From Patescibacteria group bacterium (GTDB taxonomy: Bacteria; Patescibacteriota; Microgenomatia; UBA1400; PJMF01): a stretch of 64,000 nt of DNA. The stretch spans positions 172,915 through 236,914 of the forward strand of contig JBMORP010000002.1 in NCBI GenBank assembly GCA_049322655.1, in the 5' to 3' direction. Numbering within the stretch: the first letter of the stretch is position 1; each line of letters opens with the position of its first letter. Below are positions 25,081 to 44,122 of this stretch, one piece after another. The notes below the pieces were generated by a model, which made no database searches, was not told where the DNA came from, and worked only from the letters and a program-made list of their open reading frames with translations. Both the position numbers and the translations under genes were made by a program.

Positions 25081-25728
25081 CTAGTTAGCGCTCTGAACTT
25101 TACCAATAGTCTGTCGACTTTGTTGAATTAACTGTGCTGTTTGTTGCTTCTTGGAACCAGCTGGTCCCACCGCTCCTTTTTTGGGGCTAGATGGTGGCGC
25201 AATCGAAGAAGACTGCTTAGCAGCCTCTTCTTTTTGTTTCTGAGCTTGCTTGGCTTCCTCTTCAGCTTTCTGCCGTTGCATTTTCTCCTGATATTTTTTT
25301 TGAGCTACTTGTTTTTGCTCATCAGTAAGTTTGTTGAATCTTTCTAAAACAGATTGCTTTTGTTGTTTTTCTTCTGGAGTATCCTCGTTTTTAATCTCTA
25401 GTAAACTATGAAGACTAAAAAATCCTTTCAGTTCATCAAGCACATCTTTAACTGCTCTTTTGCCTTCTTCTTTAATGGTATCAACTTCTCTTGGCGGTTG
25501 TTTTTGGTGTGGTGTTTCCTGAGAAACACCACCTTGTTGAATGGCTGAACCACCAGTCGTTTGTTGAGCTGCATTGCTGGTTTGTTGAGTCAATTGATGT
25601 TGCTGAGAAGCTCCAGCTAAAGCCTGTTGCTCTAGGTGTTCTTCGTTAAAATGGCCAAATCCAGAACGAAAGCCCCCTCCTTGCCTAGCAGCCATCCCTG
25701 GTTTTGATCCTGGCCCCGAACTCATCAT
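25081..25728 (-). CDS. Gln/Lys/Glu-rich low-complexity (disordered/coiled-coil) protein
   Basis: Intact ORF, translationally coupled to the upstream partner via a TAA-A-ATG junction. Confidence 0.5.
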   Translation of the reverse strand: MMSSGPGSKPGMAARQGGGFRSGFGHFNEEHLEQQALAGASQQHQLTQQTSNAAQQTTGGSAIQQGGVSQETPHQKQPPREVDTIKEEGKRAVKDVLDELKGFFSLHSLLEIKNEDTPEEKQQKQSVLERFNKLTDEQKQVAQKKYQEKMQRQKAEEEAKQAQKQKEEAAKQSSSIAPPSSPKKGAVGPAGSKKQQTAQLIQQSRQTIGKVQSAN

Positions 25729-25729
25729 T

Positions 25730-26080
25730 TTAAACCTTGGTATGTCCCAACTGTCTAATTTGGTACTGACTCTGTTCCTCTTGTTGATGGTGTTCTGTCT
25801 CGACTCGTTGTTCGTTTTGGGCTAACCGAGCCTGTTCTTGGGGAGTGTCACTAATTTTTTTCAAATTCTCGATTTGAGCTTGAATTTCCTCAGCATCTCT
25901 TTGCTTTTGCTGTTCTTCCAAAGCAATTATTTCTTGTTTTTTTTGTTCTTCGGCCACCGCTTCTGCTTGTTGCGATTCTTGATCACCATCAGCAGCTGGT
26001 TGACTGGCTCCAGCTCCCTTGGAATCTTGAAGTAGTTCTTCTAAAGCAGCTAATGGATCTTGTTGTTGTGGATCTGACAT
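25730..26080 (-). CDS. Gln/Glu-rich acidic low-complexity protein
   Basis: Intact ORF immediately upstream of 25081..25728 on the same strand. Confidence 0.5.
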   Translation of the reverse strand: MSDPQQQDPLAALEELLQDSKGAGASQPAADGDQESQQAEAVAEEQKKQEIIALEEQQKQRDAEEIQAQIENLKKISDTPQEQARLAQNEQRVETEHHQQEEQSQYQIRQLGHTKV

Positions 26081-39240: not shown

Positions 39241-41109
39241 TTAGTTTTCTAAACCAAGTAGCCACTGCCAAATTCCGTAGGCCACTGGTGCAGCATCTCT
39301 GGAGCCTTCCATAAAAGGTTGGTTATCATCACTCTCTACCAAAACCACTATGGCAATAGTATCTGGAAAACCATGTAGCTTAATTTGCTGTAACCAGTGT
39401 TGTTTTTCTTGAGCTAAATCTTTTTCTTCTTCTGAAGTGATATCAATAACTGGGGATTGTTTTGGACTAGTTTCTCCTAAAACTTTAAGTTGGGCTGCCA
39501 CTAAATCATTAATCCCTCCCACTGTCATCGCAAACCAAGCATGAGTTCGACGATAACCTCTTTCATCTTCTCCACCAAACTCTGCTGTCCCTGTCTTACA
39601 AGCCACCACTCCATTACTAATTAATTTGTTGGCTGGTAAATCACCCACTTCGGCCAAACGTTGCTGATTCCAAGAAAAAAACGGGTAGGCTGTTCCGCCA
39701 GGGGAACAAGCTTCAATCATACCTTGTTCAATCGTTAAGAGATGGGTTTCAGTCGCTCCCAAAGTACTACATTTACTAGTGGCATCAGTAAATAAAGTAG
39801 GTTTACATAATTTACCACCATTGCCAAAAGCTTGAACCATTTGCGCTTGTTGTAAAGGTGTAACCAACAAATCACCTTGCCCAATTCCCATATGAAAAGT
39901 ATTGCCCAAAAACCATCTTTCACCCAAAGTTTTTTCTTTCCAAATCGGGCTAGGAACCAAACCAGCTTTTTCACCTTTTAATTCAATGCCTGTTAATTGA
40001 CCGAAACCGAGCTCTTCAGCTTGCTCCACCAAAGCCTCTACCCCCGTCCATTCAGCAGCTCGATAGAAGAAAGTGTCATTACTCCTAGCGATTGCCTTAA
40101 CTAAGGAGATTAAGCCTTCTGTTCGGCCATATTGAGTGTAGTACCAGTTGGCATAACGATACTCACCCACTTCCAAGATTCCCTGATCATCAACCGAAGT
40201 TTCAGCATCGAAAGCCCCTGTCTCTAAACCTGCTAAAGCAGTCACCAATTTAAAAATTGATCCAGGAGGGTAAGTCCCATTGATGGCTCGATTGAAAAAT
40301 AATTTTTTTTCATCTGCCAAAGCCAGTCTAAGTTGATTGAGCTTTTGTTTTTGTTCAGTCTCAATATTAGAGGGACTAAATAAATTGCTATTAAATGATG
40401 GTGTACTGAGTAAGGTTAAAACTTGACCAGTATTAGCATCCAAAATCACCACCGCTCCAGTTTTATTTTCCATTTTTTTCCAGGCCACTGTTGATAAATA
40501 AGGATCCAATGACGTAGTCAGATTTTTGCCTCTGACTGGTTCAACCACCGTTGCTTCAGTTAGTTTTTTGCCTAAAGCATTAATTTCAAACTCTCGATAG
40601 CCTTTTCTTCCTTTAATCACCTCATCATAAGCAGCTTCCAAACCTAGCCGACCAACTTGATCAGTCAGTTGGTAATTTTTCTGCTTTAAATCTTCGGCTG
40701 TTACGCTAGTGACATAACCCAAAACATGCGATAAGGAAAATGGTCTTAAATAGTATCTTTGTAGGCTATAACTTACTTCATAAGGGTTAGCAACTTGCAA
40801 GGCCAAAGCTTCCTGTTTACTGAGGGGCTTTTTTTCTGGATAAATAGCGGTTGGATCCAACAGTTGGTAATATGATCGTTGATTAATTAATAGTGGCTGA
40901 CCAAACCTATCAAGGAAAACTCCTCTTTCAGCCGGCATTTCTGCCCTAAAAACTCGATTTTGATGAGAAATATCAGCAAATTGACTGCCTTGAAAACCTT
41001 GCAAGTCAATCACCCTAAAAACTAATAAGCTTAAAGCAAATAATAAACTCAAAAAAACAAACTGAACTAACTGATTTTTTCGTTGTTTTTCCATATTCTC
41101 GGCCACCAA
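39241..41109 (-). CDS. mrdA: penicillin-binding protein 2 (elongasome transpeptidase)
   Basis: SxxK (SIFK), SxN (SND) and KTGT motifs with an N-terminal TM segment. Confidence 0.9.
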   Translation of the reverse strand: MVAENMEKQRKNQLVQFVFLSLLFALSLLVFRVIDLQGFQGSQFADISHQNRVFRAEMPAERGVFLDRFGQPLLINQRSYYQLLDPTAIYPEKKPLSKQEALALQVANPYEVSYSLQRYYLRPFSLSHVLGYVTSVTAEDLKQKNYQLTDQVGRLGLEAAYDEVIKGRKGYREFEINALGKKLTEATVVEPVRGKNLTTSLDPYLSTVAWKKMENKTGAVVILDANTGQVLTLLSTPSFNSNLFSPSNIETEQKQKLNQLRLALADEKKLFFNRAINGTYPPGSIFKLVTALAGLETGAFDAETSVDDQGILEVGEYRYANWYYTQYGRTEGLISLVKAIARSNDTFFYRAAEWTGVEALVEQAEELGFGQLTGIELKGEKAGLVPSPIWKEKTLGERWFLGNTFHMGIGQGDLLVTPLQQAQMVQAFGNGGKLCKPTLFTDATSKCSTLGATETHLLTIEQGMIEACSPGGTAYPFFSWNQQRLAEVGDLPANKLISNGVVACKTGTAEFGGEDERGYRRTHAWFAMTVGGINDLVAAQLKVLGETSPKQSPVIDITSEEEKDLAQEKQHWLQQIKLHGFPDTIAIVVLVESDDNQPFMEGSRDAAPVAYGIWQWLLGLEN

Positions 41110-41510
41110 ATAACTCCCTTTGTATAAAAAATCAAAAAAAGAAGGCTTAAAATCGACTGAACTACTATCCCCATCGAATAGTGAGTCAAACTAGTCACAC
41201 TAGTTGCTACCACAATACTCAAATAAATTAGCCACCACCAAAAACTTCTGATGTTTTGGTAAAGCCATAATACAATCAAAAAACTAAAGATTAACAGTAG
41301 TGAGTTAGAAAAAGCAGTACTTAGTAAAAAACTACTTATAATAATAATTGCCCAAGCTGAAACCACTGATGATCTAACAATAATTTGTTGAAGAAAAAAG
41401 ACACTTAACCAAGGAAAACCAAACGTCGCTTCAAAAGAAACCAAAATCACCAATAAAAACAAATGAATTGATAAACGATAAAAGCTATTTAATTTCATTG
41501 AATTGATCAT
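41067..41510 (-). CDS. mreD: rod shape-determining protein MreD-like membrane protein
   Basis: Small polytopic membrane protein sitting between mreC and PBP2. Confidence 0.55.
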   Translation of the reverse strand: MINSMKLNSFYRLSIHLFLLVILVSFEATFGFPWLSVFFLQQIIVRSSVVSAWAIIIISSFLLSTAFSNSLLLIFSFLIVLWLYQNIRSFWWWLIYLSIVVATSVTSLTHYSMGIVVQSILSLLFLIFYTKGVIWWPRIWKNNEKIS

Positions 41511-42286
41511 CTTATCTCCACAACTGAACTTTCAAAAAAAGACACATACTGTTCAATAATTGCTGTTTGGACTGAACTTGCTAAATCTTGATTAATAAAC
41601 GAAATTTGACCAAGCAAAACCCCTTGTTCAACTTGACTTTGTCCCAAAGTATAAATTTTTTCTCCCACCCTAAGTTGATCGGTTTTATTTACTTCAGTAA
41701 ATAAAATCTTTCTACCATCTCCCCTTATAATCCCTTCAACTCCTGATTCAGTTTTGGCCAAGATTGGAGTGGCTTCTTTTTCATGAAGCAAAACAACCTG
41801 AGACTCGTGCTCATTGATTTTACTTAATTGGCCAAGTAGTGTCTCTCGACTAATAACTAAAGCACCTGTTTCTAAATTAAGGTCTTTCCCGCCAGCTACA
41901 GCTGGTTTGGCCAATGAAACTACTGGTCTTGTTAAAATTGTTCTAGTTTGAGGTCGATCAGTATTTTCTAGTAAAAATCTAAGTTCTTGGTTCTCTCTTT
42001 TTAAGGTTTCCAACTCTGTTAGTGAAGCTGAAGCCGCCGCCAATTTCAATTCTAAATCCTGAATATGAACAGCATAGTTAAAAACCTTTTTAACTGAACT
42101 TGATTTTGCAATAAACTGATTAGTAAGCTGAACCCACCAATTTTTACTTGGTTCAATTAAACCATGATAAATAGTTTGTTGAACCGGCCTAACCAAACCA
42201 GTAAGTTCCATAATCAAGATTACCCCACCAATTAAAAGAATCTGCTCCCAAGTAGTAGTCAGAAACAAATTCTTCTTCATAACCAC
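41507..42286 (-). CDS. mreC: rod shape-determining protein MreC
   Basis: N-terminal TM segment, coiled coil and MreC beta-domain pattern. Confidence 0.8.
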   Translation of the reverse strand: MVMKKNLFLTTTWEQILLIGGVILIMELTGLVRPVQQTIYHGLIEPSKNWWVQLTNQFIAKSSSVKKVFNYAVHIQDLELKLAAASASLTELETLKRENQELRFLLENTDRPQTRTILTRPVVSLAKPAVAGGKDLNLETGALVISRETLLGQLSKINEHESQVVLLHEKEATPILAKTESGVEGIIRGDGRKILFTEVNKTDQLRVGEKIYTLGQSQVEQGVLLGQISFINQDLASSVQTAIIEQYVSFFESSVVEIR

Positions 42287-43149
42287 TCTACTCCTTGCAT
42301 CAAGTCAAACTCAGTTTTTAATCTTAATGATTTTTCACCCAAATGATCTAGGCTTTTCTTGAAAAAATCATCTCCCAAAATCACCCATTTATCTGCGCCA
42401 ATTTGTTTAAAAAGATTATTTTGCACGATAGAATCTAACTCTTTGGTAATTTTTCGTTGCAAAGAACTAGCAAGCGGTTCAACATCTTTAAAAAGAAAAC
42501 TCATTGTTTGTAAATCTTTAGTACGACTATTTCTACCGCGAACAACTAAAGAAAATTTTTCTCCTTGATTACCAATCTCTTGATACAAAGCAAAAGCTAC
42601 TTTTTCTGCAAGTTCAAATAAATGTTTCTCTCTAAAAAAATAAATCGTTTCATCAATCGCTTCTCTCAGTGAATAGTAAACTATAAAACTTTGCTGAGCA
42701 GCCCGATCAAAAACTCCAATTTCACTAATTTCTTGGCCAATATACACAAAACTACCTTTGTCTAGGTCTTGCTTGGCTAAAAAAGCTCTAAATGCCGTAG
42801 CATAATTAATTAACTCAACACCAAAAAATCCAGCTTGTTTGAATAGTTTGGTAAAAAGCTCTCTTTCCAGAGGAGAGCTATTGGTAGGAATAAAAATAAT
42901 TGCTTTATTTCTAACTAATAAATTACCAAAATCGATGTTGTTTTCTCGACAAATTTTTTTAATACTAGCCAAAGCTTGAGTAAAATCTGCAACCTTGTTT
43001 TCAATAAAACCAGTGGCAGTATTAAATTGGTGAACCTTACGTTTTTTTGCAGTAACTACCAAAATACTCTGACCATTAATCCAAAATAGAGTCTGGGGGC
43101 TCTGATTATTTTGAGTAGAAAAAAACTTAAAACTAGGTAACTTTCTCAT
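42277..43149 (-). CDS. MreB homolog with degenerate nucleotide-binding motifs
   Basis: Aligns to MreB (VADF, IFIPTNSSPLERELF...AGFFGVELINYATAAF, VRGRN). Phosphate-1 DLGTAN is replaced by INGQSI, phosphate-2 DIGGGTT by YIGQEIS, and the adenosine motif GGGALL by GDDFFK. Confidence 0.7.
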   Translation of the reverse strand: MRKLPSFKFFSTQNNQSPQTLFWINGQSILVVTAKKRKVHQFNTATGFIENKVADFTQALASIKKICRENNIDFGNLLVRNKAIIFIPTNSSPLERELFTKLFKQAGFFGVELINYATAFRAFLAKQDLDKGSFVYIGQEISEIGVFDRAAQQSFIVYYSLREAIDETIYFFREKHLFELAEKVAFALYQEIGNQGEKFSLVVRGRNSRTKDLQTMSFLFKDVEPLASSLQRKITKELDSIVQNNLFKQIGADKWVILGDDFFKKSLDHLGEKSLRLKTEFDLMQGVEWL

Positions 43150-43195: not shown

Positions 43196-44122
43196 CTAAA
43201 AAGAATTTAGCAGTTTTGTGCCACTGTGCCAACGACCAGCCTTAAAATGCTGCTCGGCTTCATCTAATTTTGTTTGATCCTGGTTGTTCTGCTTGAAGCT
43301 TTCCCTAATTCCTGCCAACCTTTCCCAGAGCATATCTTCTTTTAAAGCTAAAGCCTTCTCTAACATGATCTCCTCAATATCTGGAACAAACTGCTCAATC
43401 TTCTCAATTAAAGCAGCCTGCTTCTTCTCCTCAGCCAAACTAACATCATTTTTAACCTTCTCGATTTCAGCTAATTCTGATTCAGTAACTAACAAAGCCA
43501 AATCTTTGGCCAAAAAATCATCCCACAAGGCTTGTTGTAGCTCATCTAAAAATGATTCTTTTTCCTGATCAGTGGCATCACTTACTCCAAGTAAATCAAA
43601 AATGTTTTGTTCTTCAATACTTTCAGTTTCACTAGCTGGCTGGTCAACTTTAGTTGATTCAGAAACAACCGGCTGCTCAGCTTTGACTTTATTTTCCTCA
43701 GTAGCCAAAGCTTGTTCGAAGCTAGCTAAAGAGACCTTGTCTGAGACTGACTTCCCTTCTGGTGTAGTAGGTTGAGACTGTTTGGCCTCTGCAACTCGTT
43801 GTTTATATTTTTGTTCGTATGCTTCAAGAGCTTTTTCTAACTCAGCCAAAGGATCAACTTGTTGAGCGGTCTGAATGGCCTCTTTAGTTTTATTTTCAGC
43901 CAATTGTTGCAAATTTTCGACATCAGCCAATTGCTGTGATTTTTGTTCATCTTTTTTAGTTTCAAATTCCGTCACTAACTCTTCTAGTTTTTTTAGTGGA
44001 TCAAAATCAACTTGCTTAGTGCTAGTCATTGGTTGAGAAGTGGAAGGCTGACTACCACTGGTAGGTGGAACATAAGAATCGACGTAAGATTGGTTTTGAT
44101 TGTTTAAGGCAGGATCTGACAT
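43196..44122 (-). CDS. acidic coiled-coil protein of unknown function
   Basis: Intact ORF upstream of the mreB-like gene on the same strand. Glu/Gln/Lys-rich. Confidence 0.5.
   Translation of the reverse strand: MSDPALNNQNQSYVDSYVPPTSGSQPSTSQPMTSTKQVDFDPLKKLEELVTEFETKKDEQKSQQLADVENLQQLAENKTKEAIQTAQQVDPLAELEKALEAYEQKYKQRVAEAKQSQPTTPEGKSVSDKVSLASFEQALATEENKVKAEQPVVSESTKVDQPASETESIEEQNIFDLLGVSDATDQEKESFLDELQQALWDDFLAKDLALLVTESELAEIEKVKNDVSLAEEKKQAALIEKIEQFVPDIEEIMLEKALALKEDMLWERLAGIRESFKQNNQDQTKLDEAEQHFKAGRWHSGTKLLNSF

What the first reader, a model, noticed from the sequence alone, without database searches (positions are those of the whole stretch)
42277..43149. MreB homolog in the canonical mreB slot with all three nucleotide-binding motifs degenerate
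The gene immediately upstream of mreC-mreD-PBP2 aligns to MreB through the core (VADF, the IFIPTNSSPLERELF...AGF..ELINYATAAF block, VRGRN). Phosphate-1 (DLGTAN becomes INGQSI), phosphate-2 (DIGGGTT becomes YIGQEIS) and the adenosine motif (GGGALL becomes GDDFFK) are all degenerate. Part of subdomain IB is missing. This is either a pseudo-ATPase MreB paralog acting with a canonical MreB elsewhere in the genome, or the organism's only MreB has lost ATP binding. Either would be notable for elongasome biology.
Basis: partly seen in the sequence, partly recalled or inferred. Interest (0 to 1): 0.6.

Follow-up and report, generated by a model that had tools for sequence, protein, structure and literature searches.

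The report
Nucleotide-motif-less, truncated MreB ortholog in Pacebacteria
In a small clade of ultra-small "Pacebacteria" (CPR/Patescibacteria), the gene in the mreB position of the cell-wall elongation operon encodes a shortened actin-fold protein that has lost every ATP-binding signature and one subdomain but is still kept by selection, which suggests an MreB that works without ATP.

Summary
Window 42277-43149(-) encodes a 290-aa protein directly upstream of mreC (ATGA stop/start overlap), a putative mreD and PBP2. It is a true but very remote MreB homolog:
- Pfam 25 bits, below the 27-bit cutoff.
- Family profile hits only MreBs in the PDB (E 6.5e-8).
- hhalign E 2e-18 to canonical MreB and 1.9e-23 to CPR-type MreB.

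Phosphate-2 (DIGGGTTE to YIGQEISE), the adenosine motif (TGGGALL to LGDDFFK), the catalytic Glu and the GGD helix are all replaced. No D-x-G-[ST] phosphate-1 signature exists. About 30 residues, equivalent to subdomain IB, are missing.

The family is tiny: 16 clusters in 5.8 billion proteins, all from Pacebacteria-type MAGs. It is under purifying selection but evolves faster than MreC and PBP2. It occupies the same syntenic slot as a full-length MreB in a related Pacebacteria MAG, so it is a degenerated ortholog, not an added paralog.

I could not test whether a canonical MreB exists elsewhere in the genome. The most likely role is an ATP-independent scaffold of the Rod complex. This is a new variant of a known kind.

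The parts
42277..43149 (-). Short MreB-like gene (290 aa): degenerate, IB-less positional ortholog of mreB
43096..43149 (-). Residues 1-18: basic, aromatic-rich N-terminal tail (MRKLPSFKFFSTQNNQSP), predicted disordered; possible membrane-binding tail
   Evidence: pLDDT below 50 for residues 1-15. Net charge +1 to +4 in all members. The amphipathicity test was inconclusive.
43027..43095 (-). Residues 19-41: N-terminal three-strand unit (QTLFWI / SILVV / RKVHQ). It occupies the place of the phosphate-1 hairpin, with no D-x-G-[ST] signature and no IB insertion after it
   Evidence: AF2 strands at 19-24, 28-33 and 36-41 with pLDDT about 90. No significant sequence alignment to the MreB N-terminus. 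MAFFT placement is ambiguous.
42790..42813 (-). Residues 113-120, LINYATAF: equivalent of MreB 'LIEEPMAA'. The catalytic Glu is replaced by N115 / invariant Y116
   Evidence: Alignments. Y116 and T118 are invariant or near-invariant.
42709..42750 (-). Residues 134-147, FVYIGQEISEIGVF: degenerate phosphate-2 hairpin (MreB VVDIGGGTTEVAVL). The Mg-binding Asp is replaced by invariant Y136, and GG is replaced by Q-E
   Evidence: HMMER alignment to 4cze. hhalign. Conservation.
42529..42543 (-). Residues 203-207, VRGRN: IIB hairpin motif retained from MreB (R204, G205 invariant; R206 nearly so)
42361..42387 (-). Residues 255-263, WVILGDDFF: degenerate adenosine motif (MreB xVLTGGGALL). GGG is replaced by G259-D260-D261
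   Evidence: MAFFT alignment. G259 and D260 are invariant within the window protein's subfamily and nearly invariant across both subfamilies.
41507..42286 (-). mreC. The likely start is the ATG at 42280, overlapping the upstream TGA as ATGA, with GGAG 8 nt upstream
   Evidence: Pfam MreC 1.1e-14 and TIGR00219 4.3e-9. Sequence read.
41067..41510 (-). Putative mreD (147 aa, multi-TM), assigned by position and composition only
   Evidence: No Pfam or NCBIfam hit. An ORF of 144-158 aa with no Pfam hit occupies the same position in L001, L009 and L010.
39241..41109 (-). PBP2 (mrdA) with intact SxxK (SIFK), SxD (SND) and KTG motifs
   Evidence: TIGR03423 1.2e-116, plus Pfam Transpeptidase and PBP_dimer. 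Motifs read from the translation.
43196..44122 (-). Conserved upstream partner ORF (308 aa): acidic, with DPLAELEKAL repeats and a conserved 140-aa C-terminal domain of unknown fold
   Evidence: Present upstream of both short and full-length MreB in all loci examined. No family or PDB match.

Best explanation
The gene is the positional ortholog of mreB in a small clade of Pacebacteria-type Patescibacteria. It has evolved into a pseudo-ATPase.

**What was kept and lost.**
- It keeps the MreB version of the actin (ASKHA) fold: IA, IIA and IIB.
- It has lost subdomain IB (about 30 residues).
- It has lost every nucleotide-contacting signature: phosphate-1, the catalytic Glu, phosphate-2, the GGD helix start and the adenosine loop.
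- The phosphate-binding Asp and Gly positions are now bulky aromatic or acidic residues (F22/W23, Y136, E140, D260/D261). These residues are themselves conserved. The cleft is most likely filled or locked rather than nucleotide-binding.

**Likely role.** The gene is translationally coupled to mreC and co-conserved with mreC, mreD and PBP2, and it is under purifying selection. It most likely still serves as the cytoplasmic, membrane-proximal scaffold of the Rod (elongasome) complex, without ATP-controlled polymerisation.

**Shown:** homology, fold, motif loss, IB loss, positional orthology, operon coupling and selective constraint.

**Inferred:** no nucleotide binding, a scaffold role, and an unknown polymer state.
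For: **Homology and fold.**

**Motif replacement.** Replacements are conserved across 16 sequences in two subfamilies sharing 30-34% identity.

**Family size.** Only 16 clusters at 90% identity in 5.8e9 proteins, and 7 clusters at 50% identity in 1.84e9 representatives. A score gap then separates them from full-length MreBs.

**Source organisms.** Members come from Pacebacteria/Paceibacterota MAGs.

**Positional orthology.**
- Synteny is identical to the locus of full-length MreB P0021 in a Pacebacteria MAG and to subfamily 2.
- The NJ tree places family monophyly at 100% bootstrap, nested in the CPR-type MreB clade at 88%.
- hhalign is stronger to CPR-type than to canonical MreB.

**Selection.**
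- dN/dS is about 0.12-0.25 with dS saturated, similar to MreC and PBP2.
- Divergence is faster than the operon partners: 31.6% identity versus 49% and 54% to L010, and 19% versus 38% and 46% to the full-length-MreB locus L009.
- That pattern fits a released or changed constraint.

**Operon context.**
- ATGA overlap with mreC.
- PBP2 keeps its catalytic motifs.

**Gradual loss.** CPR-type full-length MreBs already lack the catalytic Glu and the phosphate-2 GG, which suggests stepwise degeneration.
Against: - No biochemical data exist, and nucleotide binding by non-canonical residues cannot be excluded from sequence.
- The former motif positions are still the best-conserved segments, which could also mean a ligand is bound there.
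- Only about 74 kb of the genome was visible, so a canonical MreB that does the ATP-dependent work may exist elsewhere. CPR MreBs form two clades and some species have both.
- RodA is not in the window, so the completeness of the Rod system is unknown.
- The structure is a prediction from a 16-sequence alignment.
Confidence: 0.6

Rival explanations
1. The short protein is a non-catalytic partner of a canonical (or CPR clade-A) MreB encoded elsewhere in the genome. It might cap, nucleate or regulate filaments, or link that MreB to MreC/MreD/PBP2. In this view the genome still has ATP-dependent MreB filaments.
For: - Takahashi et al. report two CPR MreB clades, with some CPR species carrying both.
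- Only about 74 kb of the genome was inspected.
- Accelerated evolution relative to MreC and PBP2 is typical of a gene whose core function is backed up.
Against: - The gene sits in the ancestral mreB slot, where a related MAG has a full-length MreB. It arose by degeneration of the operon copy and not by duplication nearby.
- No second MreB appears within 10 kb in any of 12 loci.
- Per, only four CPR species were reported with both MreB clades.
Confidence: 0.3
2. The protein still binds a nucleotide or another phosphorylated ligand through a remodelled pocket. The conserved N-G-Q, G-Q-E-x-S-E and G-D-D loops would form this pocket, making it an unconventional but active ASKHA protein.
For: - The former motif loops remain the most conserved segments of the family.
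- G138, E143 and G259 are retained from the MreB motifs.
Against: - Both Mg/phosphate-coordinating Asp residues and the catalytic Glu are gone.
- Acidic residues (E140, D260, D261) replace backbone-amide-donating glycines and would repel phosphates.
- Subfamily 2 uses different residues in the phosphate-1-equivalent loop (SSQ/SSR), so there is no common new signature.
Confidence: 0.07
3. The gene is a decaying remnant (pseudogene in progress) or an annotation/assembly artefact, with no function.
For: - It scores below the Pfam gathering threshold and NCBI annotates it as a hypothetical protein.
- It evolves faster than its neighbours.
Against: - The reading frame is intact at 276-292 aa across independent assemblies from many samples.
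- 72% mean column identity within subfamily 1, with many invariant residues.
- dN/dS is well below 1.
- The translational overlap with mreC is conserved.
- The fold is predicted with confidence.
Confidence: 0.02

Closest known systems
Canonical MreB (e.g. Caulobacter crescentus MreB, PDB 4CZE; Pfam PF06723)
   Same: - Retained blocks GVIADF, VPxxxSxxE, the IIB helices and VRGR.
- Same genomic slot upstream of mreC, mreD and PBP2.
   Different: - 290 aa versus about 335-350 aa.
- Subdomain IB is missing.
- Phosphate-1, phosphate-2, the adenosine motif, the catalytic Glu and the GGD motif are all replaced.
- Below the Pfam gathering score.
- 13-18% identity in structural alignments to solved MreB structures.
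CPR-type divergent MreB clade (Takahashi et al. 2020, bioRxiv 10.1101/2020.05.13.095042; here P0018-P0045, e.g. P0021 from a Pacebacteria MAG)
   Same: - Closest relatives by hhalign (E 1.9e-23) and by NJ tree (88% bootstrap).
- P0021 has identical synteny, including the upstream acidic protein.
- These proteins already lack the catalytic Glu and the GG of phosphate-2.
   Different: They are full length (about 340 aa) with subdomain IB. They keep the phosphate-1 D-x-G-S-x-x-T-R signature, the phosphate-2 Asp and a T-G-G-(G/A)-S adenosine loop.
Spiroplasma MreB3 (PDB 7E1C)
   Different: SMreB3 keeps the nucleotide pocket and all four subdomains, and it works alongside other MreB paralogs in a wall-less swimmer.
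FtsA and AlfA (actin-family proteins that lack a canonical subdomain)
   Different: Both retain ATP binding. Neither is encoded in the mre operon. Sequence profiles do not link the family to them.
TsaB/YeaZ-type nucleotide-free ASKHA scaffolds and ATP-insensitive Arps (comparison from general knowledge, not tested here)
   Same: The concept is shared: an ASKHA-fold protein that has lost nucleotide chemistry and acts as a structural partner in a complex.
   Different: These are unrelated subfamilies with different partners. No homology beyond the shared fold.

Membership tests
MreB/Mbl family (Pfam PF06723) | Scores above the curated family threshold (gathering score 27 bits) | tested here: not met
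   25 bits, E 1.1e-5, covering residues 53-241 only. NCBIfam MreBH 24.7 bits against a cutoff of 515. Some relatives carry a precomputed PF06723 hit.
MreB/Mbl family (Pfam PF06723) | Homology to MreB specifically rather than to other actin-fold families | tested here: met
   [not shown]
MreB/Mbl family (Pfam PF06723) | Four-subdomain actin architecture IA, IB, IIA, IIB | tested here: not met
   About 30 residues are missing between the N-terminal beta unit and GVIADF. The AF2 topology has no IB insertion. IA, IIA and IIB are present.
MreB/Mbl family (Pfam PF06723) | ASKHA nucleotide-binding signatures: phosphate-1 DxG[ST], phosphate-2 DxGGG[TS]xE, adenosine GGG, and the catalytic Glu/Thr | tested here: not met
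   YIGQEISE, LGDDFF and LINYA occupy the motif positions, and there is no DxG[ST] in the N-terminus. This holds across the family. It is a sequence-level test only.
MreB/Mbl family (Pfam PF06723) | ATP-dependent polymerisation into membrane-bound antiparallel double filaments | not testable with these tools
   Needs purified protein, lipid monolayer EM or multimer modelling.
Rod system / elongasome operon (mreB-mreC-mreD-mrdA) | Gene immediately upstream of, and co-oriented with, mreC, mreD and PBP2 | tested here: met
   MreC and PBP2 are confirmed by profiles, and MreD by position only. ATGA overlap with mreC. Synteny is conserved in L001-L012.
Rod system / elongasome operon (mreB-mreC-mreD-mrdA) | Presence of RodA (SEDS glycosyltransferase) in the genome | not tested
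   Not found among the window ORFs that were scanned, and the remaining window ORFs were not profile-scanned.
Pseudo-ATPase (catalytically dead homolog retained by selection) | Loss of catalytic/binding residues combined with purifying selection and conserved context | tested here: met
   Motif loss. dN/dS 0.12-0.25. 72% mean column identity. Conserved synteny. Actual lack of binding is not measurable here.

The most novel reading that the evidence does not exclude
This short protein is the only MreB-family protein in these Pacebacteria. If so, a Rod/elongasome system (MreC-MreD-PBP2) is organised by an MreB that binds no nucleotide and lacks subdomain IB. That would be a natural experiment showing that MreB's scaffold function can be separated from ATP-driven polymer dynamics.
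Probability: 0.4. Interest if true: 0.75.

Novelty: new variant of a known kind. Interest (0 to 1): 0.55.

Why it matters
MreB's ATP binding is regarded as necessary for its polymerisation and membrane binding, and so for rod-shape determination. Work held in the searched library reports ATP-driven membrane binding and polymerisation of Geobacillus MreB, for example (PMC13507481, listed).

Here a naturally occurring mreB ortholog sits in the mre operon and is under selection, yet it has lost every nucleotide signature and a whole subdomain. That would give a minimal, ATP-independent MreB. Such a protein could be used to dissect which elongasome functions need only the scaffold surface.

It also documents stepwise degeneration of MreB across CPR lineages:
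- canonical MreB;
- CPR-type MreB without the catalytic Glu;
- the short, motif-less form.

Finally, it flags that 'MreB present' calls in CPR genome surveys may cover proteins with very different biochemistry.

Tried and rejected
1. **Single-sequence searches.** phmmer/tblastn with E. coli MreB against the window, and phmmer of the protein against the PDB, gave no significant MreB match. Homology only appears with profiles.

2. **Third database search, for a canonical MreB in the same genomes.**
   - I searched the big protein database with an alignment of CPR-type MreBs, looking for hits that share contig-length fingerprints or organism names.
   - It returned only 8 hits and did not even recover most of its own query sequences, so it says nothing either way.

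3. **Extending the window.** I looked up proteins at the window ends. One end was not on record, and the other added about 10 kb with no MreB or RodA.

4. **Assigning the N-terminal 47 residues.** I tried to assign them to either the phosphate-1 hairpin or subdomain IB.
   - hhalign on N-terminal sub-alignments and an ungapped profile scan gave no significant placement (z below 3, all scores negative).
   - MAFFT placed them on the IB strands.
   - I therefore report 'phosphate-1 signature absent' rather than a residue-by-residue mapping.

5. **Membrane-binding helix.** A hydrophobic-moment test for an N-terminal amphipathic helix did not discriminate, even for E. coli MreB.

6. **AFDB search.** Foldseek against afdb50 was unavailable.

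7. **Promoter/terminator scan.** Counts were not above shuffled expectation.

8. **Literature.** Searches for a nucleotide-free or pseudo-ATPase MreB found nothing.

9. **Pseudogene or artefact.** Considered and rejected because of conservation and dN/dS.

10. **FtsA, PilM, ParM or Hsp70 identity.** Considered and rejected because profiles hit only MreB.
Full report
**The locus.**
- Window 42277-43149 (minus strand) is an intact 290-aa ORF.
- Downstream on the same strand lie:
  - MreC (41507-42286; Pfam MreC 1.1e-14).
  - A 147-aa multi-TM ORF in the MreD position with no profile hit.
  - PBP2 (39241-41109; TIGR03423 1.2e-116).
  - DprA and TopA.
- The ORF's TGA overlaps an ATG of mreC as ATGA, and a GGAG lies inside the conserved C-terminal MQGVEWL codons. 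This indicates translational coupling.
- PBP2 keeps SIFK, SND and KTG (translation).
- Upstream, after a 46-nt gap, is a 308-aa acidic repeat protein (43196-44122).
- The window has about 36% G+C.
- The protein is identical to NCBI MFZ5437646.1, 'hypothetical protein ACOZAK_01145 [Patescibacteria group bacterium]', on a 272-kb contig.

**Is it an MreB homolog?**
- A single-sequence comparison does not show it.
  - E. coli MreB against the window gives nothing significant.
  - phmmer of the protein against the PDB gives only chance hits.
  - Pfam MreB_Mbl matches residues 53-241 at E 1.1e-5 and 25 bits, just under the 27-bit gathering score.
- With relatives the signal becomes clear.
  - An 11-sequence family profile hits only MreBs in the PDB: 4cze at E 6.5e-8, plus Geobacillus, Spiroplasma and Thermotoga MreBs.
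  - hhalign gives 99.1% probability, E 2e-18, against canonical MreBs.
  - It gives 99.6% probability, E 1.9e-23, over nearly the full length against CPR-type MreBs.
  - Pairwise tblastn of CPR MreBs against the orthologous genes in related loci gives 1e-5 to 1e-10.
- Structure prediction agrees.
  - AF2 with the 16-sequence alignment gives pLDDT 87.9 and pTM 0.82.
  - Foldseek with the first, weaker model gave MreB for the top 25 hits.

**Motif status.**
- The HMMER and hhalign alignments map MreB VVDIGGGTTEVAVL onto F-V-Y136-I-G138-Q-E-I-S-E143-I-G-V-F.
  - The Mg-binding Asp is an invariant Tyr.
  - The two following glycines are Q/S and E/D.
- MAFFT maps xVLTGGGALL onto W-V-I-L-G259-D260-D-F-F.
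- The catalytic Glu of LIEEP corresponds to N115 and invariant Y116.
- The GGD at the start of the adenine-side helix is S-L-x-E-A.
- The replacements are conserved: in subfamily 1 as QTLFWINGQ, FVYxGQExSEIGVF and WVILGDDFF, and in subfamily 2 as VFWFSSxEL, GIYVGSDVSE and WVIVGDAFL.
- Phosphate-1 needs care.
  - Residues 1-47 have no significant alignment to any part of MreB, and MAFFT even places them on the IB strands.
  - No D-x-G-[ST] signature is present in the N-terminal region of any member.
  - AF2 predicts three strands (19-24, 28-33, 36-41; pLDDT about 90) followed directly by the GVIADF-equivalent and helix 56-69.
  - This is a bare beta-beta-beta-alpha-beta-alpha-beta-alpha domain I with no IB insertion.
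  - Counting from the first strand to the ADF anchor, the protein has about 30 fewer residues than P0021 or E. coli MreB.
- In summary, subdomain IB is absent and phosphate-1 is gone, whichever ancestral segment was deleted.

**Distribution and origin.**
- The family is very small.
  - There are 11, then 16, clusters at 90% identity among 5.8 billion proteins.
  - There are 7 clusters at 50% identity among 1.84 billion representatives.
  - The next hits are full-length (330-350 aa) divergent MreBs at E 2.7e-10 and weaker.
- Named sources are Candidatus Pacebacteria/Paceibacterota MAGs: CG2_30_36_39, SI047_bin131, GW2011_GWA1_46_10 and IT416.
- Synteny is conserved in all 12 related loci: fmt, def, unknown ORF, Wzy_C/TPR | acidic protein, short MreB, MreC, MreD, PBP2, DprA, TopA.
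- Positional orthology is direct.
  - P0021 is a 339-aa MreB from a Pacebacteria MAG.
  - It carries FVDFGSANTRL (phosphate-1 intact), IIDLGAQVTEL and LTGGASQLNG.
  - It occupies exactly the same slot, including the homologous upstream acidic protein.
- In an NJ tree with 200 bootstraps:
  - The two short subfamilies are monophyletic (100%).
  - They join a third short degenerate protein, P0028 (79%).
  - They nest inside the CPR-type MreB clade (88%), away from canonical MreBs.
  - The sample was chosen by similarity to the family, and long-branch effects are possible.
- CPR-type full-length MreBs already lack the catalytic Glu and the phosphate-2 GG. The short form looks like the end point of stepwise degeneration of the operon's own mreB.

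**Selection.**
- Within subfamily 1 the mean column identity is 72%, with 72 invariant positions.
- dN/dS against four orthologs is 0.12-0.25 with dS saturated, so these are rough. The values are similar to MreC (0.11-0.21) and PBP2 (0.08-0.15).
- Across deeper comparisons the gene diverges faster than its partners.
  - Against subfamily 2: 31.6% identity versus 49% (MreC) and 54% (PBP2).
  - Against the full-length-MreB locus: 19% versus 38% and 46%.
  - In ordinary bacteria MreB is the most conserved protein of the operon (general knowledge).
- The pattern is of a functional protein whose ancestral constraints (nucleotide pocket, IB interface) were released and replaced by new ones.

**Mechanism (inference).**
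- The phosphate loops carry bulky aromatic and acidic side chains instead of Asp, Gly and Thr, and both Mg/phosphate-coordinating Asp residues and the catalytic Glu are gone. Canonical ATP binding or hydrolysis is therefore very unlikely.
- IIA and IIB are kept, including the VRGR hairpin, and so is a basic, aromatic N-terminal tail (net charge +1 to +4). The amphipathicity test on that tail was inconclusive.
- Loss of IB removes half of the longitudinal protofilament contact known from MreB structures (general knowledge). FtsA and AlfA show that actin-family polymers can tolerate subdomain loss.
- I therefore favour a nucleotide-independent scaffold or adaptor of MreC-MreD-PBP2. Its polymer state is unknown.

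**What remains open.**
- I could not determine whether a canonical MreB exists elsewhere.
  - None is in the 64-kb window, in the extra 10 kb, or within 10 kb in any related locus.
  - The database search designed to detect one failed technically.
- Takahashi et al. report two CPR MreB clades, with four species carrying both. I give the partner-MreB scenario about 0.3.
- RodA was not seen among the window ORFs that were scanned.
- No paper in the searchable library describes a nucleotide-motif-less or IB-less MreB.

**Verdict.**
- This is a new variant of a known kind, of moderate to good interest.
- Interest would rise if whole-genome scans show it is the only MreB.

Noticed in passing
window 43196-44122 (-); homologs at L001 9084-9959, L006 8931-9956, L007 8681-9883, L008 8948-9898, L010 8937-9944, L009 4261-4872: The ORF upstream of the MreB-like gene is a conserved operon partner, found next to both short and full-length MreB. 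It has an N-terminal SYVDSYxPP motif, a variable number of DPLAELEKALxEYExKY repeats, and a strongly conserved acidic C-terminal domain of about 140 aa (IEEQNIFELLGV...FLDELQQALWEDFL...PDIEEIMLEKALELKEDMV). It has no Pfam, NCBIfam or PDB match. It may be a lineage-specific MreB/elongasome partner.
   Followed up: partly
window 25081-25728 (-) and 25730-26080 (-): Two adjacent low-complexity acidic, Q-rich ORFs. They weakly share the 'DPLAALEELL'-type N-terminal repeat with the protein upstream of the mre cluster (blastp E 2e-5 and 3e-3, without composition correction).
   Followed up: no
window 32314-53105 versus L005 (CAYSQA010000001.1): DNA identity to the closest MAG is mosaic, ranging from 68% to 100% per 500 nt. 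The MreB-like gene lies in a 99.5-100% patch (4 differences in 870 nt), while flanking genes show 3-8% divergence. This suggests recent recombination between strains or a co-assembly chimera. L005 and L006 are titled 'uncultured Pseudomonadales', which is evidently a mislabel for Patescibacteria MAGs.
   Followed up: partly
P0028 (300 aa, Logan contig of 8.9 kb; not in window): A third, even more degenerate short MreB-like protein (IWLNLEDE / LYLQDSYSE / VVITPQE). It groups with the family at 79% NJ bootstrap, which hints that IB-less, motif-less MreBs occur in more than one lineage.
   Followed up: partly
CPR-type full-length MreBs P0018-P0045 (not in window): Many canonical-length CPR MreBs lack the catalytic Glu of 'IEEP' (K, S or N instead) and the GG of phosphate-2 (D-x-G-x-[EQ]-x-T-E). 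Some also have degraded adenosine loops (TGAAS, SGGIS). Reduced ATPase competence may be widespread in this clade.
   Followed up: partly
window 41067-41510 (-): The ORF in the MreD position (147 aa, multi-TM) matches no Pfam or NCBIfam MreD model even at E up to 1. Its counterparts in related loci also carry no Pfam hit. It is either a very divergent MreD or a different small membrane protein.
   Followed up: no
window 39241-41109 / 41067-41510 (-): The mechanically called PBP2 start (TTG at 41109) overlaps the MreD-position ORF by 43 nt. An internal ATG (MEKQRKNQ, 5 codons downstream) may be the true start. Gene callers in related loci differ, giving 618 versus 622 aa.
   Followed up: no
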